Part shown: positions 9,501 to 34,998 of the stretch, in pieces
Layout: each line of letters opens with the position of its first letter
How positions within the stretch are numbered: position 1 is the stretch's first letter
Origin: Gekko japonicus
Taxonomy: Eukaryota
Length of the DNA stretch: 64,000 nucleotides
NCBI RefSeq assembly: GCF_001447785.1
Contig: NW_015166441.1
Span: 755,007-819,006, forward strand
Direction: 5' to 3'
Translations under genes and position numbers: made by a program
The notes under the pieces: generated by a model
What the model was told of the DNA's origin: nothing
What the model saw: only the letters and a program-made list of their open reading frames with translations
Database searches by the model: none

Positions 9501-12500
9501 ACAGAAACAGCAACGAGTGTATTACTCAAACATATCCAGAATAGAGATGACTTATGGGAAAGGGCCATAGCAGAAGTACTTACTATTTTCAAAAGTGGTA
9601 TCTGTTCCTGTAGCAACTCCATCTGCATCCTGGCCCCGGAGAGCAGTTGTGCTCACAAACAACTCATCACCACTGGGGTTCTTTAATTCATGGTCTACAG
9701 CAGAGACTTGTTCCTTCTCTTCCTTCTCAGGGACTGTTACTTTCTCTTGATCATCTGAGCTTTTAGACAAATTATGCATGGCTTGTGGCATGGCTACAGA
9801 GCTCTTTCCTGAAGCAACTGGTGGTGGCATCTCTTCCTCATTCACTTTCTTGCCCTTCCTCACAGCAGTCAGCATAGCTTCCAAAGTCTAGCAGTAATTA
9901 AGGGATAAAGGCACCAGGTAAAAGCAGCACCTGCCATTCATCCCAATCAAGCCCCTTCATTACAATGGAAACAATGGCAACCCAATGTAAAACACAGGTA
10001 CTGGAAGCAGAAAAGGCATAAACATTTCTAAAGAAGTGTACCTAATTTTCTCTGGGGCAACTTATTTTTACTAATCTGCTCTTGGTCTCTCAGACTGGCA
10101 GGAAGGTGGTTGCTTCTTGCAAGCATCACAGATACTAATTTAAAAAGTTCATTCTACGTGATCCAAGATCACCTATCAAATATATACAATTGTTTTAGAA
10201 TTGCTTCTATTCTGAATCTTCTGAACGATCCAGTTGTATACACAGAAATTACACAATTTGCTGGATGACTCCTACGCAAAGTAAGAATCTTAAATCATTC
10301 TGTATCAGCTATCAGGCTGATGTAACAAGGGAAGCATATCCACACACAAATGAATTTGTCTGGAAGTTGTTTTCAAGTAGCAGACTATCAATAGTTGTCA
10401 CCTTAAGTCATGCTTCAAAGGCTGCTTGGAGAGAACTTCATAGGATACCTGCAATCTCATACCCCACCATGTTCCTGAGAATAACAGCCTTTCAGTGCTA
10501 CAAGAACATGGGAAAACTCTATCTTAGTGTATTTTGCAAAACATTCATGCAAATCAATCTGTATCAACAGCAAATAAAGTACTGCAAATAAAGCACATTC
10601 ACTGGATAGTGCAGCCACCTAACACCACACCTCTAGCGTACAATAGCTCTCTGAGTCTGACCCCTTTAGTAATGGTATTTCCAATTAAAAACAAAATTTT
10701 CTTTTTATTTCATACAAAAATATTTCAATGGAGCGGCTTCTGTTATCCTATACAATTCTGTTTCTACGTGTATTCATTATTCTGTTTATACATACATACA
10801 TTATACGAACATACAATTAAAAACTACATTGAAAATATCACATTTCTGCATTTCTTTGCAATATATGGGAGTGACAGGCATATTTTAAACAGAGTTTTCC
10901 CTTCTCCACTGAAAGTACAAGGATTTATGGTTAACACAACATACCTTAAGGCCTCGCTCATACCGTCGTACTTTGGCACTCTCCCCTGCTTTCTTTGCAT
11001 TCATTATCGCTGCCTTATAGTTAGTTATTCTTTCTTCTACTGTTCGCTGTAGTTCACTGGAAGCAGAAGACATCTCAAAAGAGCAAAAAATAAAGAAAAT
11101 AAAAAGCAAAAGTATTTCTACAGAATTACACACACTCTGATACAAAACTGATTACCAGAGGAAAACAGCTCTCTAGGACAGGCACATATAAGACAGCACA
11201 GATTGAACAGGAAACCTCTTTTGAACAGAGAGGTTCTTGTCCTTCAGCAAACATTCCATGTGTCTACTCCTGGGCTTCCCATCAAAGCAGCAATAGAGAA
11301 GTGGGTGGAGTACCTCAGGAAAATTTGCAACCATGGGATAACTAGAGATATTTGGTCAAGTAGAGAAGATGAGGGAACACAGTCAAAAATGTTTAGTCAC
11401 TGCTAACAAAGACTGACTGCATAGTATTTTTGCAGACACTAAAAATGTTCTCTCGGCCGTTTGCTACGAGTGTTCAAAATGACCTCCTTCACTAGGCCTG
11501 CTTGCAAAATTCTGTCCTTTTATTCTGTGAGGAAAACTCAGCAGGAGAAATACCTCCCCCCCCCAAAGAACAAGGAAACCAACTGGAATTTATTTGCTTT
11601 GAAAAATTCCCCAAAGAGGTTACCACTATAAATATTGGTGTGATTATTAATCAAACCTGATCCTGCTAATTAACACGAATGACACAGGATTCAGAGAACC
11701 TGTTCAAAATGAAGGCAACTGGGTAAATCCTACAGAGGTGAACAGGGGAGGCAATTCTGCTCTACCCTCGTCAGTCTATACCATTCAAATTATGCTCTTA
11801 AAATCAGATATCTTGGAGGATCTCTAGGACATGCTCAGTTGTAACCATAAAAGAGGGAAAATGCAACTATTGTAAACAAATGTATGGACCCCAATGCAAG
11901 TGTAAGATTCATTTCTGCTCCTCATTCCATGTAGACCACAAAGTACAAAGGAACTGTGTGAGCCTGTGCTCAGAGACAAAAGAAGCTTTTGCTATGTACA
12001 TGCCTAAACATATATTCGTGCCTTTATTATTTCTTCTTCTTCAAAATGACTAATATACCCCAAGTGATTTACAGAGTGAAAACAAAGCACAGTGCTATGC
12101 TCCGATACAGAAGGCAGAAGTCTTTTCAATATTGAGAAAATACACTGGGAGACGTGGAGGCAGAATGGTGACCCAGATGGCTTTTAATTCCTTTCCATTT
12201 AAAATGTAGGCCAATGGGCTTAAAGACAAAAACTTTCACCTACCTGTGTCGGTAGTTCAGTAAGCTGATCTGTGGCCATAGGAGACACAGCTATGCTTTC
12301 TGTCTCATGTTCAGTGCTTCCTCCTTCTCCCAGAACCTCTTGCAACTCTGCCTACAGCAAGAACCAGTGCAAGGGGGTGCGGTGTTAGAATGAACTAAAG
12401 AATACTTAGCACCTTTCCACTGTCACTATTCCAAGACATGGCCTGAAGTCTCTTATTTAGAATGACAGAGGCATCCCTCTTACACTAAGCCAATGCCACT

Positions 12501-15500
12501 TTATTTTTAAAATGCAGCATTATTTCTGAATGATCTAAGAGCTGTTTAAATCATATTTTATCTACAGAAGTTTTGGCCATGGATCAGTGGGGCATGCAGA
12601 AAGTTCCAGTCTTTCTTGGATATTCAGTTGAAGGATATCAGGGAGCAGGTGTTGGGAAAAACCTCCCTCTCTGCTGAAGACCCTAAAATACTACTGCCAC
12701 TAAGCTAGATGGACCGATAGTTTGATTCAGTTTAAGGCAGTGTCATATGTTCAGTCTGTTCTGGTGTTTATAACTTTCTTGCCTGGTGAATCTATCATTT
12801 GAAAGCCCTTAACACATTTCTCGGGCAAGCAAGAACACATGAGGAGGTAACCATGCCTCTACAAGAGGTCTATTCCTGAGGAAGTACACAGCACATAAAA
12901 TGTCAAGTGAACATAAAAGACCCAATTATACTATTGCCAAGCTTCCAGCAATGGCAGCTGAACCTCTTCCTCTCAGCTTCAACTATCACGACCTCATAGT
13001 CTTGCGCAATATGACAGTTACTTTACATGGAAGAATCACATGAGGATAAAATGCAAAGCTCTTTTCCTACTGTGAGCAGGGCCTAAACAATTAGCAGCCC
13101 TGTAATATGTCACCTTTCCCCCCGAATCACTTCTAAAAATTGGAATACCTACAGCGTTGTCACAACTCAGAAACAGCACTTTCTTTACCACCACTCCTTA
13201 CACATGCAGGATATGTTTCTACTCTTGTTCCTATGTATTTTCTTCATCCATGCTATGTCAATTCCAGCTTCAGTTAATGAGACTGCTAGCAATCAGTGAT
13301 GATGTGACCATGTCCTTCCCTTCAAGTGAAATGGGAAATCCTGAGCTTTGATAATTTATAGCTTATTAGCATAAAGATCTGCAGAACTGACTTTGCACTT
13401 CCCAACTGCAATCTTCCATATAAGACAATGATGGCTGTTCCTTGACAAATCACCTGCCAACAGAAATCTATACATACCAAAAGATCATTGTCTTCCTCTA
13501 GCTCATCATCATCCTCATCCTCATCCAAGTCCTTCATACAATCTGCAGCCATCTTTTCAATATGATCCGTAGGTAGAGGAGCTGGAGAACAAAATGAAAA
13601 TGGGATAAAACCTGAGAGAGGGAACCCTGAGGTTCAGACACTTGGTGTTAACCATAGAATTACAACAAAGAGGTACCTGAAAGACCCTTCTCCAGTAAGG
13701 AGCCCATATATCAACTCCATTCTGTCTAACAACCTGCCCTGTGCCTTCTTTTAGGGAGGTAAGACCAGCTACAGCCCATCATAGGGCTTTTTCAGTGGTG
13801 GTTCCACTTACATGGAACGTATGCAGTGAGGTGAAAAGGCTATACCATCCTTATTTCTCCTTTAAGACAGCTTGAAATGTGGCATTATGTTGACAGGCTT
13901 CTCATTGATTCTTGGGTTTTTAGATTTTTATCGTCTGTGTTGTTGGATTAACAGATTACAAAATATTGTTAATTTTAAATTAATTTTACTGTTTATATAT
14001 ATTTGCATATCGTATGGAAACAGGAAAGGCAGTCTATAACTAAAGGTGGAATAAAGGTCAAATAAAGTAGCTGCTACTCTGGACTAACCTTATTTCCCTA
14101 AGAAACGATCACCAATTCTCCTGGAGAGTTTGGGAGCTAAAGATGCAACACAGTGGCCTACATACAGCCTTGCCCACACAGGGCTATATTGTCACTGTAA
14201 TATGCATCCTCATGAGACTGTAGTTGTTGAATAGAGGCTGAATGCTTTCAGCCACGTTTTATCCACATTGTACAACTGATCTTCCAGTACAGCAAAGGCA
14301 AAAGCCTGCAAGTACAAGTTCAAATGGATGTATATATGTTCACACACACATTTTCTAACCAGGCGAGAGCTAACTCTTTCAAGCAGCACAGGCCACCCAT
14401 ACTGCATGTGACACTGGCAGCAATGGCATATGCAATGGTGGGGGTAGGGAAAAACATGCCTGCCCACCAGTGTGTTCCTTCCTTTAGGAACTCTGTTATG
14501 CTTCGTACGTCCACCTGCCACCCCTTCGCTTGCAGTAAAAACGGCTACCATACTTTTGAGGGTGCTGATCATGTATGATATGAGGAGTACTCTAAGTACT
14601 AGTCTCTTGCTTCTAACCCTGAGGGACAGACCCTTCCTTGGTTCGAATATCTTCAGTTAAAGCATCTAGTCCATTGATAAAATAGCTTTTAGTAAACCTC
14701 TGAGTTTGTATGAACGACTACTGAACTCTAAAGTATTCCACAAAGAGGGGATGGTCTCCATGCTTTACAAGTTTCTTTTGACAAATCTAGAACTACCCAC
14801 TGCCTCTTTTCAAACTGCATGGCATAAAGACTTAAATAAGCACCTCACAGAGGAACAATAGACCAGAATTTGGGTTTCATCGATATATACCTCACGGTCA
14901 ACGCTTATCCACACCCAATTGGTCAATCTTCTTTTAAGATGGTAGCTAACTCCAGTCACACTAGCACATGTTAACCCATTAAATTCCCCCCTTTGTTGGA
15001 AACAGTGTGGGGGAAAGGACACCTACTTCCACAACTGGTGGACGTGTCCACTCATAGAGGATTTTTGGAACCAAATCATACTGGTTATAAAACAATGGAC
15101 TGGCCATATGGTCATTAAAGACCCTGCTCCTATCCTTTTAAATGTATGGCTCAAAACCAAAATCCCGAAACATGACAGGAACCTAATTGCAGTTCTATTT
15201 ACAGTGGCAAAAAATGTTATTGCTCAAGCAATGGAAACTTCATACTATTCCGTCATTACACCAGTGGCTCCTTAAGGTCTGGGACTACTTTATTTTTGAC
15301 AAGATCTCTGAACAGACTTCTCAGTCATGTATGGTTGCTCCTTCCGAGAGCTTAATGCTTAAATGGGCCCCCTTCATCAATGCTAATATTGGCCCACAGA
15401 TGTCTGCAGCACAACTTAGTGTAGACTTTTGCTCTCTCTACCTATTCTCATGAATATTATTAGGATGGTTTATTATAGCTTGCTATAAGTGGTTGTTTAA

Positions 15501-18500
15501 TTGTCAGTGTGAAGTTCACTTATTGTGTTTCATGTTATCAGTGTTTTCCATTATATGGTTTGAATGGTTTTACTCTGTTACTTTAACTGCAGTTTCTTGG
15601 TATTGTATTGTATTTATACTACACCTAATTTTAAAAAAAACCCTGAGGGACAGGGCACTTTATTTTGCTTCAGAGATGGGGAACACAGGCCAATAAGGAA
15701 CTAACAGGGACATAAAACCTGAGACTCTCAGCTCCAGCCTTAAGAATCTGCTCTCTAGACCTCTAGCTCTGCTGAACTATCATTATTAAATTATTTTTCT
15801 CTCAGCCAACTCCTCTTCTATTGTCTTTATGAGCTTATACTCATGAGCTTTAAGGCTTGTATATATAGCTCACCCCCTCCTACTTTTGTATCGTCTCCTC
15901 CTTCCTCATGTTCTGCCATCTGTCCAACCCCCCCTGTCATCTTCTCTGTTTGACTCCTATTGCTGACTTCAGTGATTGCTCTTGTAGCCTGAATTCCTAT
16001 TTAAGCATGCCTAATTCTTACCATTGCAGAAAGGGGAAGAGCACAACACAAGATCCACTGAGAAAAGCAAGGAAAGAGATGCACAATCCCAAGACTTCCT
16101 AGGCTCAGTGCACATAAAGAAGGGGCAAGTACACATACATGTGCATTAACAAGTCTGAAGAAGCCCTAAAAATCTGTCATGTGTGTTACTGTGAAAAGCC
16201 AGTATTGGAGACTACAAACGTACCAGCAAACAGTTAAAAGCTTCCATTTTGGACATTCAAGGTAACATATACAGCACATTGTGCAGGAAACTAGTCAAAT
16301 TATTAATACAGAACAGGTATCAAGTGACACCTTAAAGACTAACATTTATTCCAGGTTAAGCCTTCATGAGTCAGAGTTCACTTCTTCAGATGCATAAACT
16401 CTCTTGTTGTTACAAACTAACATGGCTTTGCTATGGAATTAGGTTTAGACTACTGTTTTCCACCATGGATGAAAAAGTTTATCTTTATTTCTAGGCTGGA
16501 TTGGCCTAACTTCAGCTTTGACACAATGACTCTAGTTGCTAAATTAAAATTTCTTTCTGCAAATGAGATCTTGATTAAATTCTACATAGCAAAAGCAAAA
16601 ATCCCCAACTAAATGCTAACGTCTTTTTAATTTTAAAAAATACCTTTTTTCTTTTGAACAAACTTACTCTTTCCTTTAGGCTTTGTCTTCCCAGTGGACA
16701 CATTCTCTCCTGTGATAGCAGCCAGTTCTGCTTCTAGGTCCCCATCATCACCATCCTCCTCCATTTTTCGCATCATCTCTTCGGGGCTGAACTCTAGAAA
16801 AAGTCCCAGCTGTTGGCAAGAGAGAAAATGCTCTGGTGAGGACAGCAGGCTTATCACAGCCACTGCAATATTAGCGCTGTGTGAACATCTCTACATGTTA
16901 CAAACTAAAATGTCAAACGGGCTTAATTTGCCTTAAACCAACGCTGTAAACCTGTTTGCCTAAAACTAAGTTCCACTGCCAACAGACATCAATACATCTA
17001 ATTCTCAACATAGCCCCAATCCAAATAAATCTGTGGATTGGGGCAATGTAGAGAGTAAGGGCATTTTTCTACAAACTACAGTTTTTAAAATAGAGGGAGT
17101 TAAATCCTCCCCAAACTGAACAGTGTTGCCTGCCTTGGTTGGATGGTGTGTGGGAGATGGGGGGGGAGCCACTGCCGCCTGAGCCAGATAACCAGAGGCC
17201 ATGGCAACACTGTAGGCAGGCAGGCAGGCAGAAGAGAGAGGGAGAGCCCCTCTCTTCCCACCACTCTCTACAGAGACGGGTGGGCAGACAGAGCAGTGGA
17301 GAGTGTGAAGAGGAGCGGGTGAGATCCTCCCTCCCCTTTCCACTGCTAAGGAGTGGAGTGGGAGCCTGAGCACCCCCACTCTCTGGTGGCACTGTGGGCT
17401 GCCAGACAGCCAAGAGAGCAAAGGGTGTGCGTGAAGATGAATCCCCATATAAGTCGTGCGGGTCCCTGCTTGTATAGTCTGTTTTCAGGCACATGAATCT
17501 AAACAATTCAGTTCTCAAGATTTGAAAGGAGCTGTTATTTTAATGATACGGAGTAATCAAAGTCAGTGATAAACAAAGCTAAATTATATATCAAAAATTT
17601 GCTCACAACAAAGAAAATATACTTGCCCCCACTCCAGGGAAATGTGGGGAAATATGGCTTCTCTCTTTAGAACCTGCAGAAGTTCAGCCATGTGTAAATA
17701 ACTGGGAGAAAACTGGTATAGACAGTAATAATGATAAAATAAACCATGCAAATTCATATTTGTAAAGCTGCAAAATCTATATGTATATTCTTGGTTCAAA
17801 AGACTGCATTTGAGACTACTGAATTATCATTTGAACTTTTGTAAAATTTAGATATTTTAAAATGTTGAATCTTTTGCAAAAAGACTGTAACAATAAGTAG
17901 AGTTATGGGTGTAATGCATAGGCACATACAAAAGACTGGTAATTCATCCTTACCCATGAATAAGAGCAACCAAGCTTCCGATCTTTGGTGTCTCAATGGC
18001 GGATGCGTTCCTGGAGCTCCCAGGGACGCGATCTGCATGCCAGTAGTTGGGAGGGGGTGTGATCGTACACACTCCCCCGGGGCCCTTACGTTGGGTCCCC
18101 AGCCATGGGGCGCTAAAAAGTTGCCTCTCCTCTGGCACGCTGCCGGAGAATTGAGACTCCCTTCTGCCCTGACGGTCCTGCTGCTGTGCGTCCACTATGG
18201 ATCTCAAGCCGCTGACCAGGACAAGCGCATGGAGGCCGAGCGAGCAACACGTACCTTTGGCGAGGTCTTCGGGCCGACATGAACTGTGAGTCCATGAAAG
18301 CGAAAACACCAGGATAAAGGCAGAAAGCCCCCCCCCCCGCAATAAAAGTAAGTGAGGGGAGGGAACTTCCCAAACGCAAAGACAGAGGCCTCTCCAAAGG
18401 GGGGAGGCAGCCATAAAAGCAAAACGGAGCTGTTTTAAGAACTTCATAAGAGATTTACAAGCATTAGCGCGAACTTTAGAGACTTTTGGCAAACTACTCT

Positions 18501-21500
18501 TAAAGATAAACATCCCCAAAGTTGGCGGGCAAAAAAACTGAGAAGGATAAGCAAGCGAAACTTAAGCTTTCTTCAGGAAGCCCAAGTCCAGCTGGGCTGG
18601 TCAGCCGACCGGAAACTTCCACAGACATTTCAAAGATGTTAGCAGACTCTTTGCGCCTCTGCTGGAACAAATGACAAACATAAACGAGCAACTGACAACT
18701 TTAAATCAGAACTTCGCAGCCCAGCAGCTCCGGCTAAGCGAAATTAACAAAAAGACTGAGCAGACAGCCAAGACGGTGAAGGAGGTGGATGCCAAGTCTA
18801 AAAAGGTTAAAAAATGTGTGCAGATGTTGGAAAAGAAGAGAACATCTGATAAATCACAGCGCTTGCAACTCCAAATGGAAAAAGCAAGCTTTGTCCTGAG
18901 ATTTCAGGGGCACCCTGAAACTAAGGGGGAGAATCTGAAACAAATTCTGATTGATGCCTTGGCCCCGATTGCAGATTTAAAAGCGGATTATATTCAAAAC
19001 GAGATGGATGTGGTCTATAGATCATATTCAGAATATATAAAGAAGAAAACTCTGCCAGAGGAGATAGCGGTCAGATTCTCAAAAAGGCATGTGAGGGATC
19101 AAATCCTGAAAGCAACATCAGGAATGTCCCTAAAAATCGAGGGCAAGGAAATAAGGGTTTTGAAAGATATTCCATTTGAAATTAGGAAGAGAAAGAAATT
19201 TAAAGACTTGGCAAGGTTTTTGCAAACAACCAACATCCCTTACAGATGGTTGGTACCCGAGAACATCCTTTTAAAGATAAACGACAAGAAAGAAAGAATT
19301 AACATTGCTAAGCAGCAACTTGGTTCTACAGGAGAGGACGACAAAGAAGACGATGACAGTGACAAAAGAAACGACAATGACTCTGATGCTACAACTTCTG
19401 AAGAAGATTCCGATTCGCAACGTGGGGTAGCCGCTCCCAAACAAGACTATCAATTGAGTAATAGAAGAGGAAAAAATGAGATGCTGAATGACTCTGAAGT
19501 TAGCCTTAAGTGGATTATTATTAGCGGGGGTTTTGTGGTATTTCTTGAACAGTTATTTTAACTGTTTTTGATAACACAAGCATACATATATTGATCACAC
19601 TCAATGTAACTAATAATCTCTCTAACAATTTAGCAAATTTTTATATGCTTTGTAATAGCCACCACCTCTTGGGTTTTTAGAGGGTTTTCTTTCCTTTCAC
19701 CTGTAGTTTGTAGATACCCTCCCTTATTTCTTTGTAGTTTATAGAAAATGCAATAAAAAATATCCCTTCGGGGGTTGAAAACAAAAACCAAAACCAAGAG
19801 CAACCGAACAATCTCATGGCATACACTAAACACAGCTAAAACAAATTTCATCCAAGATGCACTATCTATGCTGGCCACAAGACAAATAGAGTTAAATGCA
19901 CTTTAAGGTATTGATTTCAATAGGCTTAAAAGGTAAAGGTTCCCTTGCTCGAAAGCCAGTCGAATCCAACTCTAGGGTTGCAGTGCTCATCTCTGTTTCA
20001 AAGCCGAAGAGCCAACGCTGTCCGAAGACATTTCCGTGGTCATCTGGCTGGCATGACTAAACACCAAGGCACACGGAACACTGTTACCTTCCCACCGAAG
20101 TGGTACCTATTTATCTACTTGCAATTTCTTGCTTTCGAACTGCTAGGTTGGCAGGAGTCAATGGGCTTAAGTATGCTTAAATGTGTGCTGGATCATCTTC
20201 ACTACTGTTACCCTTTTACGGATGTAATACTTAATTTTTCTTTACTGCCCCACTTTTTCAGTTTTAACCTCCAGAGCCTTTTCCCTTTATTATTCAAACC
20301 AAAGCTCCTCAATTTGTAAACAGCTCAGATATCTCCAGGTTGTGAATCTTGGCCAGCATGGTGTAGTCAGAATAGGGAGACAGAAGTTCAAATCCCCACT
20401 GTACTATGAAACTCAAATGTCTGACTCTGGGCTTTTCTCAGCCTAACTTTTCTCACAAGATTGTTATGCGAATAAAATGGAATAAGGAAGAAACAAGTAT
20501 GCCTTGCCAAGCTCCCTGGAGGAATGGCGGAATAAAAATGTGCCACATTATCTCACACAGACTTCCTTTCAGAAAGATCATGACTACTACTCTGTAAGAC
20601 CTGCAGCCCAGTCATTTTTTAAAAAGCCAAATTAGCTGGTAAGTCTGGGATGTGTTGCTTTACCCAGCAGCATAAAGAACCACTTACCTGAACCGAGTTA
20701 TTTGTGCTGCTTTTCCTTCCTTCTCTCTACATCCTCTGTTAATGACACAGTAGCCTGGACAATATATGCTGGTTTGTAGGATGCTGAGGAATCGTACTTC
20801 AAAGGATTATTCTAGATCTCAACAGTTTCTGGTCCCTTCCATAAATACATGTTACAAATAATTGACTAGATCTGCTCTAATCATTTACACTGCAGTCCTA
20901 AACAGTCAATGGGCTTACAAGGTTGTAACTGCTTTAAAGCTCACTGTTATTGTATGAAATAACACAGGGCGCTAAGCTACCCTGTCATATACCCACTTTA
21001 GAATGTGATAGTAAATAATAAATCTGGCACTTCTACCAACACATTGACAATAAAAAGACTATGAAAACAAGAAAAAAAGCTGATTTAAACAACCAAGAGC
21101 CAGGTATTCTGGCTCTTTCTTGCTCCCCTCTAAAGATAGCATTCTGAGCATTTCAATTATCAGAAGTTTTCCTAAGCATTCAAGAGCTGGTAAAAATTCT
21201 GATGGGAGCCTAAGACTCTTATAATGGAGAATGACTCATCAGGTCACAAGGCAAAGATTTCAAGGATAAATTGCCTAACAGAGTATAGTAACAAGAGTCT
21301 AGCTGGGCATCTGTAAGGGCTTGTTTAAATCTAGGATAACCTGCCACGCAGAAACCATACAGCTTGAGATACATGTATAATTCAAAACTGGAGTAAAGTC
21401 TATGAGTGAATTCCTGATGCACATAAAACATAGACTATCAAATGCACCAATTTTCAACTATTATAGATGTAAGAAAAAGACATATTCTATAGTGTCTTGA

Positions 21501-21667
21501 GTTACAGAAACACAATGAAAAGTTGCACAAACAAAATGGGCTTAATGCTGGAACATTCTTCTAACAAGGTACACATACTGCTAGTAGAAAGATTTATATA
21601 CCTGCTTTGCTGCAGCAGCTCCCTGACCCTTTTGTTGGGGGTTTTTCCTGGGTCTTCTACCAAGCAT
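392..21667 (-). CDS. CC2D1B: Coiled-coil and C2 domain-containing protein 1B (Lgd homolog), 5' portion; continues beyond window start
   Basis: Phase-consistent GT-AG exons 21602-21667, 16668-16809, 13478-13581, 12244-12351, 10945-11073, 9584-9887, 9277-9401, 4361-4436, 710-820, 392-522. Translation MLGRRPRKNPQQKGQGAAAAKQLGLFLEF...DLEAELAAITG... with DM14 repeats (EERITNYKAA..RRYERGLK; REKEYKLAALKAK; LQQRLEKYKAAA..RMHERIAK). Synteny with ORC1 favours 1B over 1A. Confidence 0.93.
710..820 (-). CDS. CC2D1B: CC2D1B linker exon (LESAGKMCVPPKPAPSIP...EAS)
   Basis: cag/gtgaga, 111 nt, symmetric phase 1, open frame. Confidence 0.8.
829..1190 (-). mobile_element. 3' end of an L2-type LINE/SINE with (AAAT)n tail
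   Basis: Reverse strand reads tgttagccgccctgagcctccgggaaagggcgggatgtaaat(aaat)n; 5' boundary uncertain. Confidence 0.6.
1435..1628 (+). mobile_element. tRNA-derived SINE (Squam3/MIR-like)
   Basis: A box tggtgtcgtggtta, B box ggttcaaaccc, core gttgttgtgaggataaaatggag. Confidence 0.7.
3259..3688 (+). mobile_element. Squam3-like SINE containing a nested hAT MITE
   Basis: ggagaactgggtttgattccccactcctc...ctctctcagccccacctacctc...gggaaaggaga...(tct)n tail. Confidence 0.8.
3398..3577. mobile_element. hAT-type MITE
   Basis: TIRs CAGTGTTCCCTCTAAGCTG / CAGCTTAGAGGGAGCATTG; 8-bp TSD ctcaaagg/ctcacagg; second copy at 52930. Confidence 0.88.
4361..4436 (-). CDS. CC2D1B: CC2D1B exon (KFIMVLEALDSGHSVDLKDMPPAPD)
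   Basis: cag/gtaaga, 76 nt. Confidence 0.92.
4951..5450 (-). mobile_element. Composite SINE-like element: Sauria-like segment, CpG-rich core, L2-type tail
   Basis: Flanking direct repeat tttctaat (4943-4950 and 5451-5458); tail at 4954-5035; Sauria-like motif at 5364-5417. Confidence 0.55.
6084..6313. repeat. Inverted repeat, 92-bp arms and 46-nt loop
   Basis: Arms 6084-6175 and 6222-6313 are reverse complements with about 10 mismatches. Confidence 0.9.
6317..8200 (-). mobile_element. RTE/BovB-like LINE, 3'-truncated, internally deleted, decayed
   Basis: APE endonuclease ELKWTGLGHF..YSG..RIISIRL..ILQVY..LIGDWN.KVG; RT segment KALDCVDHEKLWLVLKEIGVPQHLIVLMHNLY. Confidence 0.9.
8590..8745 (+). 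mobile_element. Decayed L2 reverse transcriptase fragment
   Basis: Degenerate DTIDH..LL..L..GVGGTVL.WF..YLEGRYQKMVLG. Confidence 0.5.
9277..9401 (-). CDS. CC2D1B: CC2D1B exon, DM14 repeat 2
   Basis: REKEYKLAALKAKQEGDLEKAKEYMRTGK; cag/gtaagg. Confidence 0.92.
9584..9887 (-). CDS. CC2D1B: CC2D1B exon (TLEAMLTAVRKGKKVNEEEMPPPVA...)
   Basis: tag/gtaagt, 304 nt, phase 0 to 1. Confidence 0.9.
10945..11073 (-). CDS. CC2D1B: CC2D1B exon, DM14 repeat 1
   Basis: EERITNYKAAIMNAKKAGESAKVRRYERGLK; GAG acceptor after a long pyrimidine tract, gtatg donor. Confidence 0.88.
12244..12351 (-). CDS. CC2D1B: CC2D1B exon (AELQEVLGEGG...ELPTQ)
   Basis: tag/gtaggt, 108 nt, ELQEVLG motif. Confidence 0.88.
13478..13581 (-). 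CDS. CC2D1B: CC2D1B exon (PLPTDHIEKMAADCMKDLDEDE...DLL)
   Basis: cag/gtatgt, phase 1 to 0. Confidence 0.92.
14560..15640 (+). mobile_element. 5'-truncated L1-clade LINE (ORF2 C-terminus and 3'UTR)
   Basis: Zinc knuckle CWKQCGGKDTYFHNWWTCPLIEDFWNQI; T-rich 3'UTR; A-tail near 15633. Confidence 0.8.
16315..16425 (-). mobile_element. Penelope-like terminal fragment
   Basis: caccttaaagactaaca...cacttcttcagat motif shared with the copies at 52103 and 63722. Confidence 0.65.
16668..16809 (-). CDS. CC2D1B: CC2D1B exon (LGLFLEFSPEEMM...KPKGK)
   Basis: cag acceptor, gtaagt donor, phase 0 to 1. Confidence 0.92.
17972..19795 (+). mobile_element. Full-length ORF1-only L1-derived element (HAL1-like)
   Basis: TSD aagagcaacc (17962-17971 and 19796-19805); CpG-rich 5'UTR with ATGGCGG; ORF 18671-19561 is L1 ORF1p-like; AATAAA at 19752; A-rich tail; no ORF2. 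Confidence 0.85.
18671..19561 (+). CDS. L1 ORF1p-like RNA-binding protein (coiled coil, RRM, CTD) with acidic tail, 296 aa; probably N-terminally decayed
   Basis: Heptad-rich N-terminus, LRFQGHPE, IAVRF..RDQIL, IRVLKDIP..IRKRK, IPYRWLVP. Confidence 0.75.
   Translation: MTNINEQLTTLNQNFAAQQLRLSEINKKTEQTAKTVKEVDAKSKKVKKCVQMLEKKRTSDKSQRLQLQMEKASFVLRFQGHPETKGENLKQILIDALAPIADLKADYIQNEMDVVYRSYSEYIKKKTLPEEIAVRFSKRHVRDQILKATSGMSLKIEGKEIRVLKDIPFEIRKRKKFKDLARFLQTTNIPYRWLVPENILLKINDKKERINIAKQQLGSTGEDDKEDDDSDKRNDNDSDATTSEEDSDSQRGVAAPKQDYQLSNRRGKNEMLNDSEVSLKWIIISGGFVVFLEQLF
19928..20157 (-). mobile_element. Sauria SINE
   Basis: aaaggtaaaggttccc..gtggtcat.tggc.ggcatgact..ggtacctatttatctact..ctttcgaactgctaggttggcagga. 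Confidence 0.85.
20352..20545 (+). mobile_element. tRNA-derived SINE (Squam3/MIR-like)
   Basis: gccagcatggtgtagt A box, gttcaaatccc B box, ctcagcctaac..ttgttatgcgaataaaatgga core. Confidence 0.7.
21602..21667 (-). CDS. CC2D1B: CC2D1B first coding exon (MLGRRPRKNPQQKGQGAAAAKQ)
   Basis: ATG at 21667, donor CAG|gtatat. Confidence 0.9.
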
Positions 21668-22639
21668 TTTGACTCACGACCACCAAATGCTTTGACGAGT
21701 CCACAAAAATTACCTATGCCCAAATACAATAAACAGCAATTATGTATAGCCATTTCCTGTTAAAACATGCAAATCATTCTTATTGGAAACTAGGTCTGAA
21801 AAACTTCAGTCTACCACCTCCTGGGCTGCTATAAACCTAATTCAAGTAAACACGCAACAAAGCTTGTCCCCTTAGATACGCTTGAACATCAGGCAATGAA
21901 CTGGACATTGTTTCCTGAATTACCTGAAATGGCAATCTCACAGAAGCTTTTAAAAATTGGTGTGCTTCTTTATTTGATTACAGAAAGGCCACAACCAGCC
22001 ATTTCAGTACTGACTTCACAACTATTAATTAATTAAAATTATTCAAAAGAGAGATCCTGGGGCTCATAATTGGATAGAGGCTACACCATCAGAATGGAAA
22101 TGTTGCTGGCCCAGTCCCAGGGTAGAAGAGGGGAGAGACATTCATATAGCACATTCTTTGACTGAATAAAAACACAGATTAAGATCTAGCATTTTCATCA
22201 TTAAAAATTTTTTGGGACTGCTCCCCTCCATCATCTGACTCACTTGAGATGTGCCTTACTGCAAACTCTGTAGGGGGAAACAGACCCTCTAGACCTGCTG
22301 AAGGGTGCTCTTTGTTATTACTTTCCATATCCCATAGCTGATGCCTTGGTGATCAACACATTCTGAGGCTCTTCGGGCTCAAATTAAGCCTTACACCTGC
22401 AAATGAGCCAAAAATGAGCATTACTGTCATTTTTCTGCACTGTTATTTCCTTAGGACAAACAGCTGGGCTTAGTATCGGAAACCACCATCCTCTGTATTA
22501 AAGTACCATTAACTTCTAGGGGCCCCTGAATCACGTTCATACACGGTAACTTGCATGTGTGACGAGATGCCACCACACAACAAACGCAGCTTTCATGGCA
22601 ACTGATATCAACTGGAACCCAAGACTTTGTAGAAGCAGT

Positions 22640-23400
22640 TCTCACGTTCAGGTACGAGGTGACCGAGGACCGTGCAACACGCGAATCAGTGCAGTCCCCA
22701 GTCCATAAGCAGCCAGTCGGCAACCACCCACCGCCTCCAAGGAGTCCACTCTGCCGGGGAAGGCTAAGAGCCACGAAATCAGATTACGCTCTGGGCTCAG
22801 TTAACAACAAACCGTCTGCCAGGACAGAGGCAGGAGCAGGAAGAGAAGGAGAAGGAACGGAAAGGGGTTCAGGCTAAACATCAGCAGCTGTCGCCCCCTG
22901 CTCAGGTGATAGCCACAGGAGACCAGGGCTGAGGGACGCTAGCCCATCCGACGACCCCGTCAAGAACGGGCGGCGCCCGAAACCACAAACTCACCTCCCG
23001 CAGCAGCCGACAAGCCCCGGCGCAGCACACAGGAAGCGCGGCGGCGCGCTCTTTCCACACCCACTCCGCCTCAGAAAAGGCCTGCACCAAGAGGCCCAGC
23101 AACGCACATGCGCAGACTGCGAGAAACAGGAGAATGGATAGGAGGCGGAGCTACCAGGCGAGGCGGGCGGGTAAAGAGATGGGCAGGGCGAACAGGCCGT
23201 GGGAGCATACCTGTCGCCAAAGGGCGGGCTCGTGGCAGTAGCCGGCTAGTCTGCCTTGCGATTTCGGAAGAAGAGCCACACGTTAGTTTTAGAATTGTAT
23301 TTGTGTAAAGGATTAGGTGGAACGGGGGGAAAACACCAACCCGCCAGAGCAAGAACGGAAGAGAGAACAAACGCCTTCTCAAGTCACCGCAAAGATGACA
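22640..23400 (-). promoter_or_regulatory. CC2D1B CpG-island promoter and non-coding exon 1 (donor GAG|gtgagt at 22995)
   Basis: CpG-rich; NRF1-like TGCGCATGTGCG at 23103-23114; GC boxes near 23141, 23161 and 23221; strong donor. Confidence 0.75.
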
Positions 23401-23497
23401 CTTTGCTGATTCAGCGCTGACTGGCTGTTTACTTCTGTAGAGCAGTTTATGGCGTCATGGTACTGCTTTGAACAAAGTTCGAGTCCAGTGGCACCGT

Positions 23498-23762
23498 AAG
23501 AACATAAGAAAAGACCTGCTGGACCAGACCCGTGGTCCATCGAGTCTAGCATCCTGTCTCACTCAGTGGCCAGCCAGTTCCTTCTGAGGCCTTCCCCTGA
23601 TGTTGCCTCCGGGCTCTGGGATTCAGAGGCACTAAGCCTCAGTCACCATGGCTAGTAGCCAGTGATAAAGTTAATCTCCATGAATCTATCTAATCCCCTT
23701 TTAAAGCTGTTTATTCCTGTGGCCATCACTACATTCTCTGACAGCAAATTCCACATTTTATT
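23498..23762 (-). mobile_element. CR1 LINE 3' end
   Basis: taagaacataaga..ccatc.agtc.agca..cagtggcc..tagcca.tgat..tctaatcccct tail motif. Confidence 0.75.
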
Positions 23763-23775
23763 TTTGTACACTACA

Positions 23776-24111
23776 CAGGGCTATTTTGGGGCAGGAACAG
23801 AGTTCCAGCTGGCTTCAGTGTTCACCACGCCCACTGCAGCCAAAACCTCTCAATGCCTGACTTACAGAGGGAAGGCCTGGAGAGCGACCCCCCCCCAGGT
23901 GGGCGGGCCGAGGGCCCCCTGGAAGGATTGGGGAGTCATTTAAATGCGGGGTGCCCAGGCAAGCCAAGGGAAGGCATGGGGATGTGGCCTAATATGCTAA
24001 TGAGCTGTGATATCAGAGATGTGGCCTAATATGCTAATAAGTTTCTGCTGTTGGGTGTGGCCTCTAATGCTAATGAGTTCCTGCTGGGCTTTTTCTACAA
24101 AAAAAGCCCTG
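23776..24111. mobile_element. hAT-type MITE with internal gtggcctaatatgctaat repeats
   Basis: Termini CAGGGCTATTTT / AAAAAAGCCCTG; degenerate 8-bp TSD acactaca/atagtaca. Confidence 0.75.
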
Positions 24112-24420
24112 ATAGTACATAATTTCAAAACAGGGCTAGAAAAGAAATGAATAAAAATAAATAATGGGAATTATTAAGCTAAAAACAACTTGAACAAATA
24201 AAATTTAATAGGCCAGGAGCCATACAAAAACCTCAAGTTATAATTCGATTTTACATTTAGAAAGCCAAGATTCTAATATGAAATGGACTGACACTAAAGA
24301 TGCATTATGACAGTTCCAAAGTTCATGTGGGAACAACATAGCCACAACCTCACTATCCATGAAGTTCTTTATGGCATGGGGTTCATGCAGAATTCGGGGG
24401 GGGGGGGTCCACTGATTAGC

Positions 24421-25220
24421 TGTTAGGTTTAATGGCTGCCAGCCATTTAACCCTTCTTGGGTGATCCCCCCTTCTTCCAGCTGCAGCAAGCCACAGCCAG
24501 GAGAAAGGGGGATCCAAACTGGCCGGTTGTCATACCCACCGTAAAGCCTGACCCAGTGGACCCTGATCCTGGGGACTCTGCACCTTTCACATCCAAGGAA
24601 GAGCTCCCTGCACCCCCAGACATAAGTTTTGCAGAGGCTGAACACCAACTGCCAGAAGGGTTCAAACCTGGAGCCACTCCTGCAGAGCCGAGCGCAAGCT
24701 CCACACCCCGATTCCCCTCCACCTGTAGCTCGTTTAAGAGACCAAAGGAGACGGGATTTGACAACCCGGTACAGGGAAGCACGCATGCGTGGGAGGCGTC
24801 CTCTGAGTCCAGAGTATTAACTGGAGCTAGGACTCTGTAATCAGCCGGCAATTAGGAACACAGGGAACAGGCTTTTAAGGAAGCCCTCTTCACTACCTAC
24901 CTCATGCTGGCATCTGATCATGATTGAATCGCTGCACCTCGGACCTTGCATCTTGTTTCCTGACTTTCTGCTTGACTCCCTCGGCTTTTTGACTCCAGAC
25001 TGCTTGACATCGTTCTTCTGGCTCCTTGACCTTGGAATGTGTAACCTGACTCTGAACAACGGCTTTCAGCTTTAGAACTGCCGATCTCTGGTAAACCTTG
25101 GACTGTGCAAGTGACCTGATATTTTGGATTACGCTTTTGTTTCTCTGCCTATCTGGTGCTCTGACCTCAGCCTGTGTTTTTGGATACTCTGTGCCTTGCC
25201 TAGCCTGCCCCGTCAGGACA
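24421..25220 (+). mobile_element. Probable Gypsy-type solo LTR
   Basis: TG...CA termini (tgttagg...caggaca); GC-rich with repeated TGAC/TGGAC motifs; TSD not clear. Confidence 0.5.
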
Positions 25221-25740
25221 ATCGTGACACCGGTTCAGGGCATTTTTGGCTCAGTTCGGATGCCACCCCAAACCCTGAACCAAACTGAAATTTTTATACT
25301 TGTGCCTGTCCCTAGTTTGGAATTATTGCTGAGGCCATGTGCGTTAGCTCTATTTTATTTGCTTGTAAGTTTTAAGATGTAAACCTCGTGACATCTAATG
25401 GAAAAATGTCAAAATCAGGCGTGTCCTTTATTGACTTTCAGCAGCTCCTGTCAGTGCTTCTTTACAGTATTATGGGAAATACGTGTTATTTTATATCTTC
25501 TACTGAATGTTTTAGTAGATTCTGTATGAGAAATGTTTAGTAATCGCATTTGGGAAATTGGATTAAATGCATTCTGAAGCTCTGTTTGTAACAGATGAGC
25601 ACACTTGAAAGCATGCAGACTGATACTATGTGTATTTATAAAGATGCTGGCCCCCTGTTTAAGAACCACAAGCGGAATTAAATGTAAGCATCTCAGACAT
25701 ATTAATCATTTCATATTCCCATTATAAATAGCAGCAAGAC

Positions 25741-27404
25741 GATTGAAGACTTCCTGTCTATGGCTTAAGAACATAAGAACATAAGAGACGCCAATGTTGG
25801 ATCAGGCCAAAGGCCCATCCAGTCCAACACTCTGTGTCACACAATGGCCAGAAATACCAGTGCCATCAGGCGATCCAGCAGTGGGGCCAGGACATTAGAA
25901 GCCCTCCCACTGTTGACCCTCCCCCAAGCAACAAGAAGACAGAGCATCACTTGCTCCAGAGCCCCTAGCTATACCTTGTGGCTAATAGCCACTGATGGAC
26001 CTCTGCTCCATATGCTTATCTAATTCCCTTTTGAAGCTATGGCGGAGGCTCTCTCCTGAACGGGGGAGGCATTCCGCGCTCCAGGGGTGTTGGAGGGGTG
26101 CCGCCTCAAGTGGCACCCCCAGGTGAGCCTCAGTAAGGAGGCTCCAAGCTGGGGGCGCTTGGAGGGCGACCTCTTCGATGGCTCGAAGCCGGAGAATTGA
26201 GGCGCTCTTTCTTGCCCCAATCGGTCCACCCCCCGCGAGGTTCGGTTTTACCGAGCATAGCTGAATGCCGATCGGGACAAGCAAGAAGGTCAAGCGAATG
26301 AAGCGCGATCAAAAGGTGTCTGTGATCAGACCGTCAATGAATCGGAGAACGAGACGAGCGAAAAAGTTTTAAAAGTGAGTTCTGATTCCCCCCCACCACC
26401 TTCAGCGGCGTCGGGAGAAATCCCGGACGCAAACAAACAGAACTGTGTTCTAAAAGAGACGGGGGGGGGGGGGAGAACAGAAAGCACTCAAGTGTGCTAG
26501 AGACTTAACTGCATTTACGGATAAGTTTTACACTTGCTGAAGAAGTGTGAAAAAAGCACTCTTTACTACTCTAAATATATCAAGCAAAACAACCTGCCGG
26601 GTGAGATTGTGATCAAATTTCTCCGATGACAGACAAGAGATGATATTCTCAAAGCGACAACAATCAAACCCCTGCAATTGGGATCAGCAACTATCAGGGT
26701 CCTAAAAGACGTTCCATTTGAGGTCAGACAGAAAAGAAAAGCATATAAAGAGCTCATTTCAACGCTTCAAATCAACCAGATTCAATATGCCTGGCTTTTT
26801 CCAGAGGGGGTGCAGTTTAAATAAGGAGACAAAAGGGAAAAAATTGACTCGGTGTCCAAAGCGGAAAATTGGTTGAAGCAGTTTTTTGGAGCAAAAGAGG
26901 AAGAGCAGCAGGACGACGAAGGCCAAGCAGCCAGCCCAGACGAGACGGACAGAGACCTAAGGAGCAGAAGGAGGCACGGCCAGAGAAGCATATGATCTGC
27001 GACTGAGAGTTGCCAAGTAGCACTTATAATTTAAAAGATTATAGGCGAACTGGATGAAGTCTTTATGCACACTGAGAAGAAAATAGACATTTACTAAAAT
27101 GGACTCACTAATCTCCTTAATTCATTGACTTAAACAAAAGCTTTAATTCTTTATAACTAACTATGTACTAACTGTTAATGACCTTCCTTTCTTGGGTTTT
27201 TAGTTATAGCGTGGGGTCTTTTTCTTTTATACTGTCTGTATCCTGGGGTTTATTATTTTAGTTTGTTATTTGTTTCCCCCTCCCCTCCCCTACCACTTTT
27301 TTCTTTTTTCCGCTTTTCCTTTTTTTTTCTCTTTGTAGTCATGTAGGTGTAACAAAAATTAATAAAGCTACCCTGCCTTCAGGGGATTAAAAATAAATAA
27401 ATAA
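25741..27404 (+). mobile_element. Second ORF1-only L1-derived element (internally deleted, CR1 fragment nested in its 5' end)
   Basis: 17-bp TSD ataaatagcagcaagac (25724-25740 and 27405-27421); ORF1 remnant near 26565-26995, YSKYIKQNNLPGEIVIKFLRRQTRDDILKA..IRVLKDVPFEVRQKRK, homologous to the 18671 ORF; AATAAA at 27361. Confidence 0.85.
25765..26036 (-). mobile_element. CR1 3' fragment nested in the HAL1-like element
   Basis: aagaacataagaacataaga..ggcccatccagtccaacactctg; flanked by ctatggc direct repeats. Confidence 0.8.
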
Positions 27405-27974
27405 ATAAATAGCAGCAAGACAACTAACGTCCTTAAATCTTCGGAAGTAAATGCCACTTCGGGCATAATAGTGTCCTCTTAAAGCTGGGAACTGATATTG
27501 AAGAACAAGAAGCAACCTTCTGAAAGTAGTTAATGTAAACTTTCATTTTTTTTAAATCCTCCAGAAAGAATAGGAAGAGTTGTGCCACCCACTGGCCATA
27601 TACTGCACATGCAATTCAACACCTTCAGCCCAAAGTAATGTTCAGCCATGGGAGACTGATAGGGAGCACCACTGTAAGGTTCATGTGCTTCATCCTCCAG
27701 TCTCCAATTCTCACTAAGGGGCTGGCTGTGCCTGATCACCAAATCATGGCATGAATTAAATCTTAGAATGATTGAAAAAACATTGATACAGAGAAATTGA
27801 ACATTTTAAGAAAAGGATTTTATAAAAGTGAAATTAAAACAGTATAAAAGTACACTGAAAAATAGGTATGAATTTGATAATACAAATTATCACCAAGTTT
27901 TAATCAGCATCATTATTTAAAATAATTTCTTTAAAATTTAAGATTAACCTCCCCACCCAATTTACAGAATTGCT

Positions 27975-31100: not shown

Positions 31101-34100
31101 TTTTTCCTTATTTTCTTTGTAGCTACCGATCTATAGTCAAATATATACAGTAGAAATGAATCTGTATAGAAATGATACCAGAATGTTTAGCTATGTACGT
31201 AACTTCCTCTAAGTACATATTATTTGCTTAATTTAGTGTTGATAAGAATGAAGATGTGTAACAGTTATTTAGGATGCCTAGTAGAAAAGATAACAGATGG
31301 TATGGGCATGTGATAGATGAAAGGAAATATAGAGCATGTATACACTGTTGCTAAATGGATAGTATATGGATAGGTAAAAATTAGGTAACTTAGATATTTA
31401 GTTATGTATGAGAAATTTGAATAGAATTTATCAATATAATACACTCTCCTTTCTTTTCTTTTTGAAGACCAATAAAATATTAAATTAAAAAAAGAAAATA
31501 TTTATGCATGTGTGGCATGCGTGAATTTTACCCAATTCCATCCTCTAGGGGCAGACCTCCAACTCCACCCCACATGCTGGTCCTGGAAATCCACCATCTT
31601 CCAGATGCAGCATTTCAGGGGGCATTTTTGAGCTGCCACAGGAGGGAGGATGCAGGGAAGTAATATTTTGGTGCATAGAAATTTTACACAGAATAGTACG
31701 GTTTAGCATTTTTATGGAATTTAAGCAATAAATGCCTTAGTTTTCTACCAGCCAAACTGCTGGAGGTAATATGGAGGTAATTAAAAAAAAAATGTATGGA
31801 GGACATCTTGTTTTCTTCTTGCAAGTAGGGAGATAACAGATTGCTGTTCACCCCCCCAGTGCAGCTTCTTATCACCTCTGCTGCCAGTGGTGGTGGTGGG
31901 GGGGAGTGATTACTTTTCTTCCCTCCAAACTGGGCTGGGGGAAGATTGTCTTCTTATCGCTCTGCTTGCAAGGGGGAGATAAGCTGAATGCATCTTTTCC
32001 TCCCCTCTAAGCATGGGTGTGTGCACATCCTTGCACTGTGGTAACAGAAGCGATCAGCTTGTTCTTTCCCCGGGCAGGCAGATGAGAAACTGATTGTTTA
32101 TGCTCTCCCCCCCCCAACTGGGGTGTGTATGAACAGAAGTAATCAGCTTCTGATTTCCCTGTCCCAAGCATCTCCTGTGTCCCTGCAAGACCCAGACTTA
32201 GGGAGGAGCGGCGGGGACGGTGACGGGACTGGTCATCAAAGTGTCATTTCTCTTCTCCCCCAAGCTTTTCCCCAAGTGTCTGCAAGGCTAGAGCAGATGA
32301 AGTCACACATAGGGAGCTCACAGATGGCTATCATAGCATATTAGTCATCAGAAGTCATCCCAAAAGACTGAACTAAACTAAGGACACTACAGACCCAAAC
32401 TCTGGAATTACCTAATTATATGTATATAGGGTGATGAGAACATTTCATCCATGGCTTGCATGATGTGTGTCATGGTGACCAGTCCAGAGCTACTCTTCTG
32501 ATTAGAGAGTTCACAGATCTCAGTAGACCTTCTACATATATCAAGGCAACGTCTTGCATCACCAGACAGAGCAGCCACCTAAAACAAAATAATGAAAGAA
32601 TAAGAACCATTCCTGATATCGCTATACTCAAAAGACAAAGTTATTTTAATGTATACCATTTGCTCCTTATAATATCAAACTTGAAACTGGTCACTTGACA
32701 CAGGCTTTCAAAATTCAAATCAAGTAAATTTAAGAAAACCACACACATTTCCCCCTCAGATGGCCAGGAGAGAAAATGAAGTCAATAGGTATGGGATTAG
32801 CTGAATTATCAGGGACTGCAGTCAGAACTTTTAAATATCATAGAAAGTGTCTCTTAATTATTAGGACCGGTGCTTTGAAGCCTAACTTTTAGGTGTAACT
32901 AACTTTACCTTTCTAGAAACTAACTGAATAGCATCCTCTTGAAATGCTTTCACTTGGGCCATCCTGGAGGAAACAATCTGCTGTAACTGTTTGTAGGTAT
33001 ATGGCTGGAAGGACATTCTGGTAAGGCCCTAGAACGAAGAAAATGTTAAATATTTAGGTGCCAAAACATCTCAAGAATTGCTTAATACAGAGAAATGTGC
33101 CACTTTGTGTACCCGAAACTACTTAAACTGACTTTTAAGCCCTTTTTCTGTTTACTACCTCTCCTTCCACAGCAGAATCAAATTTCAGATTCAAATTTCA
33201 AATTTATTACGGCCAATTGACAAGCAGTATCTTCCTTTAATCACATTCTTATCGTATAGATACAAGTTTACAAACTATACTGCAACCCACTTCCTCAAGG
33301 CACGCAAAGTGACTATCTAGGAACAAGGAAATTCTGTGTTCATGGAAACGGTTTCAGCTGTCAGTAAGTACTACACAGTTTGCAGAAAACCCAGTTATCT
33401 ACAGAAGACTGATGAGCCATCAGGCTCCCTCGACATTGAATAATTTTTTATCCTGTATAGAATGAAAAGTGGCCTCAAATCTAACGTTTTGAAGCTACTT
33501 TTTAAAAAAGCTAGTGGTAAGCTGGATTCACGTTATGTGTAAGCCACTGAAATAGGGGTTTTTAGAATTAACTACAATAATATTTTGTTTTAGAATTCTC
33601 TTGCATTCATGCCGCAAATATGGGTTGATGAAACAGGAATTCCTGTATATAGGATCTATTTCCATCTGTTACCTTTCAGAGTACCTCAACACATCAGAAA
33701 AATAAAGTAAGCCAATTACATAGCAGTGTGATACAGATGGGCAAGGAATGTTTGAATAGGATTTGCCATTAACTCAGATCATTTTCTAGACTGACATGCA
33801 CCATGCCACATTCACTTTTATCATACTGATAAGAACTGATAGCCTAAGCAATAGTTTTTTCATCCAAGAGATATAAGATACAAACCACCTCAACTGAAAG
33901 TTATCACACCACAATTAGGTCTGAATAAAGGTGACAAATGAATAGAATCATGGAAGATTCAGAATTCTTTATGACCATAGCAATAAAGCTGCAAGGACAT
34001 ACCAGCCTGCTAGCTACTCGGTTCATCATGATTCTCTCTGGCAGATCCATAGTGTTAGCAATGGCTAAAACGATCAACTTGGAACCCTTCTGCGTTGGCC

Positions 34101-34962: not shown

Positions 34963-34998
<36 letters not shown>

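What the first reader, a model, noticed from the sequence alone, without database searches (positions are those of the whole stretch)
17962..27421. Family of TSD-flanked ORF1-only (half-L1) retroelements in a squamate
Seen: two independent insertions (17972-19795 and 25741-27404), each bounded by its own TSD. Each has a CpG-rich 5' end starting cttcc..ATGGCGGA, a single L1-ORF1p-like ORF with an acidic then basic C-terminal tail, a short 3'UTR, AATAAA and an A-rich tail, and no ORF2. The two ORF1s are clearly homologous but divergent (YSEYIKKKTLPEEIAVRF vs YSKYIKQNNLPGEIVIKF; IRVLKDIPFEIRKRK vs IRVLKDVPFEVRQKRK), so they are distinct subfamilies. Known: ORF1-only HAL1 elements are described mainly from mammals and need L1 ORF2p in trans. 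Inference: a long-lived, diversified HAL1-like lineage in this reptile, which encodes its own RNA chaperone and parasitises L1.
Basis: partly seen in the sequence, partly recalled or inferred. Interest (0 to 1): 0.72.

Follow-up and report, generated by a model that had tools for sequence, protein, structure and literature searches.

The report
Active lizard half-LINE-1 retrotransposon lineage
These are two decayed copies of an abundant, old and likely still active family of 1.8-kb lizard jumping genes that keep only the RNA-binding first gene of LINE-1 and likely borrow the copying enzyme from complete LINE-1s, a design I found described for LINE-1 only in mammals.

Summary
Real. Both window elements have target-site duplications (10 and 17 bp), an L1-type ORF1, a short 3' UTR and an A-tail. 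Neither ORF1 is intact, and the second copy carries a 272-bp insert and a 488-bp deletion. They belong to two of at least three ORF1-only families of about 1.8 kb, with 1,726 exact 3'-end matches genome-wide. No family member continues into ORF2: 0 of 120 ORF1 frames; 0 of 71 3' ends picked without regard to ORF1. The protein folds like human L1 ORF1p. The three families form one branch apart from all sampled autonomous L1s, and ORF1 is under purifying selection (dN/dS about 0.1-0.2). One subfamily is very young: 20 of 20 copies encode the same protein. Family ends carry a predicted hairpin before the A-tail that sampled L1s lack. It works like mammalian HAL1, most likely from an independent origin. 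The trans partner is untested and Repbase/Dfam were not checkable. The scan reported such elements before on other DNA of this genome.

The parts
17962..17971 (+). Element 1, left target-site duplication (10 bp)
17972..18521 (+). Element 1 (family 1) 5' UTR, about 550 nt, CpG-enriched, beginning with the CTTCC..ATGGCG terminal motif shared by full-length copies
   Evidence: motif compared with the lizard clade-1 L1 consensus in PMC5381506 section 9
18522..19561 (+). Element 1 ORF1 (L1 ORF1p type: coiled coil, RRM, CTD, acidic then basic tail), decayed: split over two frames, longest frame 18671-19561 reads past the family stop
   Evidence: (PF02994 E 0.0048, below cut-off); intact relatives 326-327 aa
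19752..19795 (+). Element 1 3' end: AATAAA, predicted hairpin (19763-19774), A-rich tail
19796..19805 (+). Element 1, right target-site duplication
25724..25740 (+). Element 2, left target-site duplication (17 bp)
25748..25764 (+). Element 2 (family 2) 5' terminus, cut off from the rest of the UTR by a later insertion
25765..26036 (-). Unrelated 272-bp repeat inserted into element 2, likely the 3' end of a CR1-type LINE in reverse orientation (label recalled); flanked by a 7-bp repeat that may be microhomology
   Evidence: 94-97% matches in 8 other loci, one overlapping the end of a 280-aa frame in L005; Pfam gave that frame no name
26037..26565 (+). Element 2, remainder of the 5' UTR
26566..27020 (+). 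Element 2, C-terminal half of ORF1 after a 488-nt deletion; in-frame stops and a frameshift
   Evidence: intact relatives 308 aa
27021..27404 (+). Element 2 3' UTR with AATAAA (27361), predicted hairpin and A-rich tail
27405..27421 (+). Element 2, right target-site duplication

Best explanation
The two elements are decayed copies of a multi-family lineage of 1.8-kb retroelements that encode an L1-type ORF1 protein and no ORF2, and that are likely copied by target-primed reverse transcription using the ORF2p of complete L1s in the same genome. Shown: family status, fixed ends, 9-24 bp duplications, A-tails, frequent 5' truncation, no ORF2, L1 ORF1p fold, purifying selection, one branch in the ORF1 tree. 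Inferred: the lineage arose once by loss of ORF2 from a lizard clade-1-type L1; the CpG-rich 5' UTR is an internal Pol II promoter; each RNA is coated in cis by its own ORF1p, which is why ORF1 is conserved; the hairpin just before the A-tail likely helps it capture or position a foreign ORF2p, as the Alu stem-loop does with human ORF2p.
For: Family and ends. Of 163 distinct loci, 147 end in hairpin plus A-tail and 73 have a detected duplication of 9-24 bp (median 17) around a unit of median 1,803 nt. No ORF2: 0 of 120 HAL-type ORF1 frames have an endonuclease frame behind them, against 63 of 64 L1-type frames (duplicates not removed, L1 side mostly picked by its endonuclease). The 1 of 163 hit is an insertion into an L1 ORF2. 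0 of 71 3' ends have ORF2 within 600 nt upstream. Protein: a profile hits human ORF1p structures at E 9e-14; the AlphaFold model (pLDDT 78) matches 2YKO at E 1.7e-11. Tree: HAL branch SH-aLRT 99; trees that join any one family to the sampled clade-1 L1s are rejected, p-AU 3e-9, 9e-12, 5e-6. dN/dS medians 0.18, 0.13, 0.12 against 0.09 for L1. The 5' terminus fits the lizard clade-1 consensus GACTTCCGGTG-N8-ATGGCG (PMC5381506). Intact L1 ORF2 frames exist in both L1 clades. Stem-loop engagement by human ORF2p: PMC10830416 passages.
Against: No experiment shows which enzyme mobilises it; duplications of clade-1 and clade-2 L1s look alike, so the partner cannot be named. L1 sampling was limited to the best 150 hits of three endonuclease queries and one Pfam query; the sampled clade-1 L1s do not carry the ATGGCG part of the terminus, so the true parent family may be unsampled. 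The trees are quick trees without bootstrap, and the careful search did not finish. The hairpin is not individually significant in family 1 (z from -0.58 to +0.36, 8 ends) and only partly in family 2 (2 of 9 below -2); it is clearer in family 3 (3 of 6 at or below -2.5). No compensatory changes within a family were shown. The ORFs score below the Pfam cut-off or not at all. About half of the 20 young copies have missing or scrambled ends, so assembly may have inflated their identity. RNA reads are few and unstranded.
Confidence: 0.85

Rival explanations
1. The elements are short products of unsampled autonomous L1 families, made again and again by early polyadenylation after ORF1; they are dead ends and the selection seen on ORF1 acted in the full-length parents.
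For: L1 sampling is incomplete. Some lizard L1s have a long ORF1-ORF2 spacer of about the length of these 3' UTRs (PMC5381506 passages; spacers of about 460 nt).
Against: Every subfamily would need its own unseen parent. A parent with a near-identical ORF1 would rank at the top of the ORF1 searches, yet 0 of 120 frames and 0 true cases among 163 loci have ORF2 behind, including 20 young near-identical copies (two ORF2 hits, L200 in a flank, L205 nested). Spacer-bearing L1s have ORF1s only 21-33% identical.
Confidence: 0.05
2. The elements are ORF1-only as described, but are mobilised by another LINE (CR1, L2 or RTE type) that recognises the 3' hairpin, as stringent LINEs do.
For: A conserved 3' hairpin is typical of stringent LINE partners (recalled) and is absent from the 29 L1 ends folded (lowest energy -4.4 kcal/mol, in a chimeric end).
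Against: Plain A-tails, 14-19 bp purine-rich-start duplications and an L1 5' terminus are L1 signatures; no microsatellite tail; the stem sequence differs between families. I did not compare the 3' ends with those of CR1, L2 or RTE elements.
Confidence: 0.06
3. The copies are processed pseudogenes of one or a few domesticated ORF1 host genes of the L1TD1 kind.
For: ORF1 is under purifying selection without ORF2.
Against: At least three families, each with many successive subfamilies (12, 16 and 6 clusters at 92%), 1,726 3' ends, an L1-type terminus on every full copy and no introns; this is the pattern of a replicating lineage.
Confidence: 0.04

Closest known systems
HAL1 (half-L1) of mammals (Smit 1999; Bao and Jurka 2010, not held; seen only as summarised in PMC5753468, PMC5786205, PMC3627910, PMC8535693)
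   Same: Non-autonomous L1 derivative that encodes ORF1p only, keeps ORF1 coding over long times, and has L1-type insertion signatures.
   Different: Reptile host; ORF1 and 5' terminus are of lizard clade-1 L1 type; three deep coexisting families with a near-identical young subfamily; a predicted 3' hairpin that the sampled L1s of the same genome lack. Whether mammalian HAL1s have such a hairpin was not checked.
Lizard clade-1 L1 (Boissinot and Sookdeo 2016, PMC5381506)
   Same: 5' terminal motif, ORF1p architecture with acidic then basic tail (28-42% identity to sampled L1 ORF1s), A-tail and duplications.
   Different: No ORF2; 5' UTR about 550 nt rather than about 1.3 kb; 3' UTR 250-370 nt ending in a hairpin, against about 10-210 nt without one in sampled L1s.
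HeT-A (Jockey clade) and Ag-Sponge (CR1 clade), ORF1-bearing non-autonomous LINEs (PMC5786205 passages)
   Same: ORF1-only design that depends on an autonomous partner.
   Different: Other LINE clades and insect hosts; no sequence comparison was made.
Alu (SINE with a stem-loop engaged by L1 ORF2p; PMC10830416)
   Same: L1 parasite with a stem-loop 5' of the A-tail (predicted here).
   Different: Alu is a non-coding Pol III RNA with a long stem; here a coding element with a 4-10 bp stem.

Membership tests
HAL1 (half-L1) | Encodes a protein homologous to L1 ORF1p | tested here: met
   Pfam alone is below cut-off
HAL1 (half-L1) | No ORF2 in the transposing unit | tested here: met
HAL1 (half-L1) | Multi-copy unit with fixed ends, A-tail and variable duplications | tested here: met
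HAL1 (half-L1) | ORF1 coding capacity maintained (purifying selection) | tested here: met
   dN/dS 0.08-0.18 between subfamily majority sequences, 9 pairs
HAL1 (half-L1) | Derived from an L1 (5' end and ORF1) | tested here: met
   ORF1 groups with clade-1-type L1 ORF1s to the exclusion of clade 2; 5' motif; the parent family was not found
HAL1 (half-L1) | Mobilised in trans by L1 ORF2p | not testable with these tools
   inferred from insertion signatures only
HAL1 (half-L1) | Descent from a mammalian HAL1 family (not required: HAL1s arose several times, PMC5753468) | not tested
   no mammalian HAL1 sequence was available; an independent origin is inferred from the lizard-type ORF1 and terminus
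Autonomous L1 | ORF2 with endonuclease and reverse transcriptase behind ORF1 | tested here: not met
Domesticated ORF1 gene (L1TD1 type) | Single conserved locus | tested here: not met
   hundreds of dispersed copies with duplications
LTR retroelement or endogenous retrovirus | Long terminal repeats, short fixed duplication, Gag-type protein | tested here: not met
   no terminal repeats, duplications 9-24 bp, ORF1p fold

The most novel reading that the evidence does not exclude
An ancient, single-origin and still active radiation of protein-coding L1 parasites in geckos, independent of mammalian HAL1, that has outlived its parent L1 family and has evolved an Alu-like 3' hairpin to capture ORF2p from any active L1; its identical young copies make it a ready system to test why a trans-mobilised element needs its own ORF1p.
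Probability: 0.4. Interest if true: 0.7.

Novelty: new variant of a known kind. Interest (0 to 1): 0.52.

Why it matters
The papers I could read describe ORF1-only L1 derivatives from mammals, and the claim that they need ORF1p in cis rests there on long-kept coding capacity. A reptile lineage with three deep families would show the strategy is a general and durable outcome of L1 evolution. A young subfamily with identical intact ORFs would let the cis requirement and the role of a 3' stem-loop in trans capture of ORF2p be tested directly. In practice these elements are an abundant repeat class that Pfam misses.

Tried and rejected
Pfam on the ORF1s: weak or no hits. Protein collection: one close relative, P0001, unnamed, 43-58% identical, inside family 2; its host is unknown, so distribution across species was not established. 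All 20 listed sequencing runs that hold the element carry one organism label; no listed holder is on record as RNA. Rfam: nothing inside the elements. Insertion polymorphism: no empty site was seen at L206 in 4 runs; a joint across L197 in RNA reads was rejected because its flanks behave like a repeat and the joint does not sit at the duplication. RNA-seq covers the young element (158-563 reads in about 14-17 million, 3 runs), but the reads lie on both strands and intronic read-through is not excluded, so it is not used as proof of own transcription. Endonuclease or ORF2 hits beside HAL copies (L044, L047, L088, L180, L205) proved to be nested insertions. Partner assignment from duplications failed. 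Family-1 3' ends could be counted (633) but not sampled for what lies upstream. Literature searches for a reptile HAL1 listed none; the library lacks most subscription papers, and supplements were not opened.

Full report
Observation. Both elements are at the stated places with their own duplications. Element 1 (17972-19795) is nearly full length but its ORF1 is split over frames; the 296-aa frame in the ORF list starts internally and overruns the family stop. Element 2 (25741-27404) has a 272-bp foreign repeat inside its 5' motif, a 488-nt deletion that removes the first half of ORF1, and stops in the rest. Both are dead copies. Element 1 likely lies antisense in a 5' intron of a CC2D1-type gene (DM14 exons at 9.5-11.1 kb on the minus strand, CpG-rich first-exon-like stretch near 23 kb); element 2 lies between that stretch and AAA-ATPase exons at 34-36 kb. 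This placement is inferred. The host is a squamate, likely a gecko: a protein annotated from a gecko is the close relative of one of the genome's L1 ORF1s.

Families. DNA searches gave 55 and 68 matches among 40 scored candidates each, many spanning about 1.82 kb with the same 5' and 3' ends. A third family turned up beside a family-2 copy. Exact 3'-end patterns match 633, 639 and 454 places (controls 0, 12, 0): a lower bound of about 1,700 insertions. Of 180 fetched loci, 163 were distinct; 147 end in a C-rich/G-rich hairpin and A-tail by my pattern, and 73 show a 9-24 bp duplication around a unit of median 1,803 nt (many loci were too short or gapped to hold both ends).

No ORF2. Among 184 stop-free ORF1 frames, 0 of 120 of the HAL type and 63 of 64 of the L1 type have an endonuclease frame behind them (duplicates not removed). 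In one search, 5 of 163 loci had an ORF2 hit within 900 nt; 4 end in their own tail first, and the one endonuclease hit (L205) is an insertion into an L1 ORF2. As an independent test I took 3' ends in contig order: for family 2, 41 ends at 40 loci (places already fetched skipped) gave 15 full-length, 14 truncated within ORF1 or the 5' UTR and 12 3'-UTR-only, one of which matched no reference; for family 3, 30 ends gave 4 full, 8 running off the locus, 15 truncated and 3 3'-UTR-only. None of the 71 has ORF2 within 600 nt upstream. So these 3' ends are not shared with an autonomous LINE at any appreciable rate, and 5' truncation is common, as expected from target-primed reverse transcription. 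Family 1 was not sampled this way.

Protein. Intact ORFs are 308-327 aa. Pfam is weak, but a 73-sequence profile, which includes L1 ORF1s, finds human ORF1p structures first (E 9e-14), and the model of the young family-2 protein has a long helix, RRM and CTD and matches the human ORF1p trimer chains (E 1.7e-11).

Descent and selection. The genome holds many autonomous L1 families of two clades with intact ORF2. In quick trees the three ORF1-only families form one branch (SH-aLRT 98-100), with family stems of 0.3-0.6 changes per site, as deep as splits among L1 families. AU tests reject joining any single family to all sampled clade-1 L1s (clade-2 rows and one long-branch row left out). This tests only that one alternative, and unsampled L1s could break the branch. 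The 5' terminus fits the lizard clade-1 consensus in PMC5381506 (section 9 read) better than the L1s I sampled do. dN/dS is 0.10-0.18 (family 2, 6 pairs) and 0.08-0.10 (family 3, 3 pairs) between subfamily majority sequences; medians over representative copies with dS 0.25-1.5 are 0.18 (42 pairs), 0.13 (104), 0.12 (15) and 0.09 for L1 (27) (intact frames only, pairs not independent).

Recent activity. 48 of 128 listed hits to family-2 ORF1 have the same score. All 20 that I fetched encode one identical 308-aa protein, with a mean of 0.49 differences per 927 nt, in different flanks; my pattern found 17-20 bp duplications at 6 of the 20. About half have missing or scrambled ends, so assembly may have smoothed them. 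In an independent DNA run the element is hundreds of times deeper than its flanks (not a copy count). No empty site was seen.

3' hairpin. All three families end in a predicted stem-loop between AATAAA (absent in many family-3 copies) and the A-tail, with different stems. In family 2, 67 of 72 ends of the 14-nt form keep the inner stem while showing 13 different loops (the pattern itself fixed the outer pairs). Against shuffles it is significant mainly in family 3. The 29 L1 ends have no comparable stem. PMC10830416 (passages) reports that human ORF2p engages a stem-loop 5' of the poly(A) and suggests this helps Alu outcompete the L1 3' UTR. A like role here is a hypothesis.

Known systems. 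HAL1 is described as an ORF1-only L1 derivative that arose several times in mammals (PMC5753468, PMC5786205, PMC3627910, PMC8535693: passages read). The primary paper was not held. Passages of PMC5381506, PMC5203782 and PMC11303007 showed no HAL1 in reptiles. Eight searches listed no reptile report; Repbase and Dfam could not be checked, and supplements were not opened. Earlier notes of this scan describe similar elements in this genome; I read them after forming my view and do not count them as support.

Verdict. A real ORF1-only L1 derivative that meets every HAL1 feature testable here, probably of independent origin, and unusual in its depth, recent activity and 3' hairpin. New variant of a known kind; interest 0.52.

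Noticed in passing
L053:227-1084 and L160-L189, L404-L433: Third ORF1-only family (about 1.77 kb, 320-aa ORF) with the longest 3' stem; many copies lack an upstream AATAAA yet end at the same place.
   Followed up: yes
L271, after the ORF2 frame: An L1 whose 3' end is replaced by a short stretch resembling the end of a HAL-type ORF1, ending in a G-run and a long A-tail; possibly a fourth, clipped family or a template-switch chimera.
   Followed up: no
L152, L157, L190, L191, L192, L193, L205: ORF1-only elements and L1s are often nested in each other.
   Followed up: partly
L267/L283 (clade 1) and L344/L345 (clade 2): Young autonomous L1 families with intact ORF1 and ORF2 and groups of equal-scoring copies (8 rows, 9): candidate trans partners.
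   Followed up: partly
window 25765-26036, also 23497-23710 and 49397-49515: Copies of an abundant repeat with a TAAGAACA tail, likely CR1 3' ends (label recalled).
   Followed up: partly
window 14624-15381 and 61885-62043: 5'-truncated L1 ORF2 remnants (clade-2-like and clade-1-like).
   Followed up: no
window 9555-11151, 33907-36630, 55240-56787: Host exons: CC2D1-type DM14, AAA ATPase (ORC1-like by recalled gene order) and PRP38.
   Followed up: partly
P0003, P0030: L1 ORF1-type proteins annotated in public databases as 'apolipoprotein A-IV-like'.
   Followed up: no
P0007: Unnamed 311-aa ORF1 that falls sister to the HAL branch on a long branch; could be a related lineage from another species.
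   Followed up: no
L140 / L112-L113: An L1 with its 5' UTR and ORF1 duplicated in tandem in front of a complete element.
   Followed up: no
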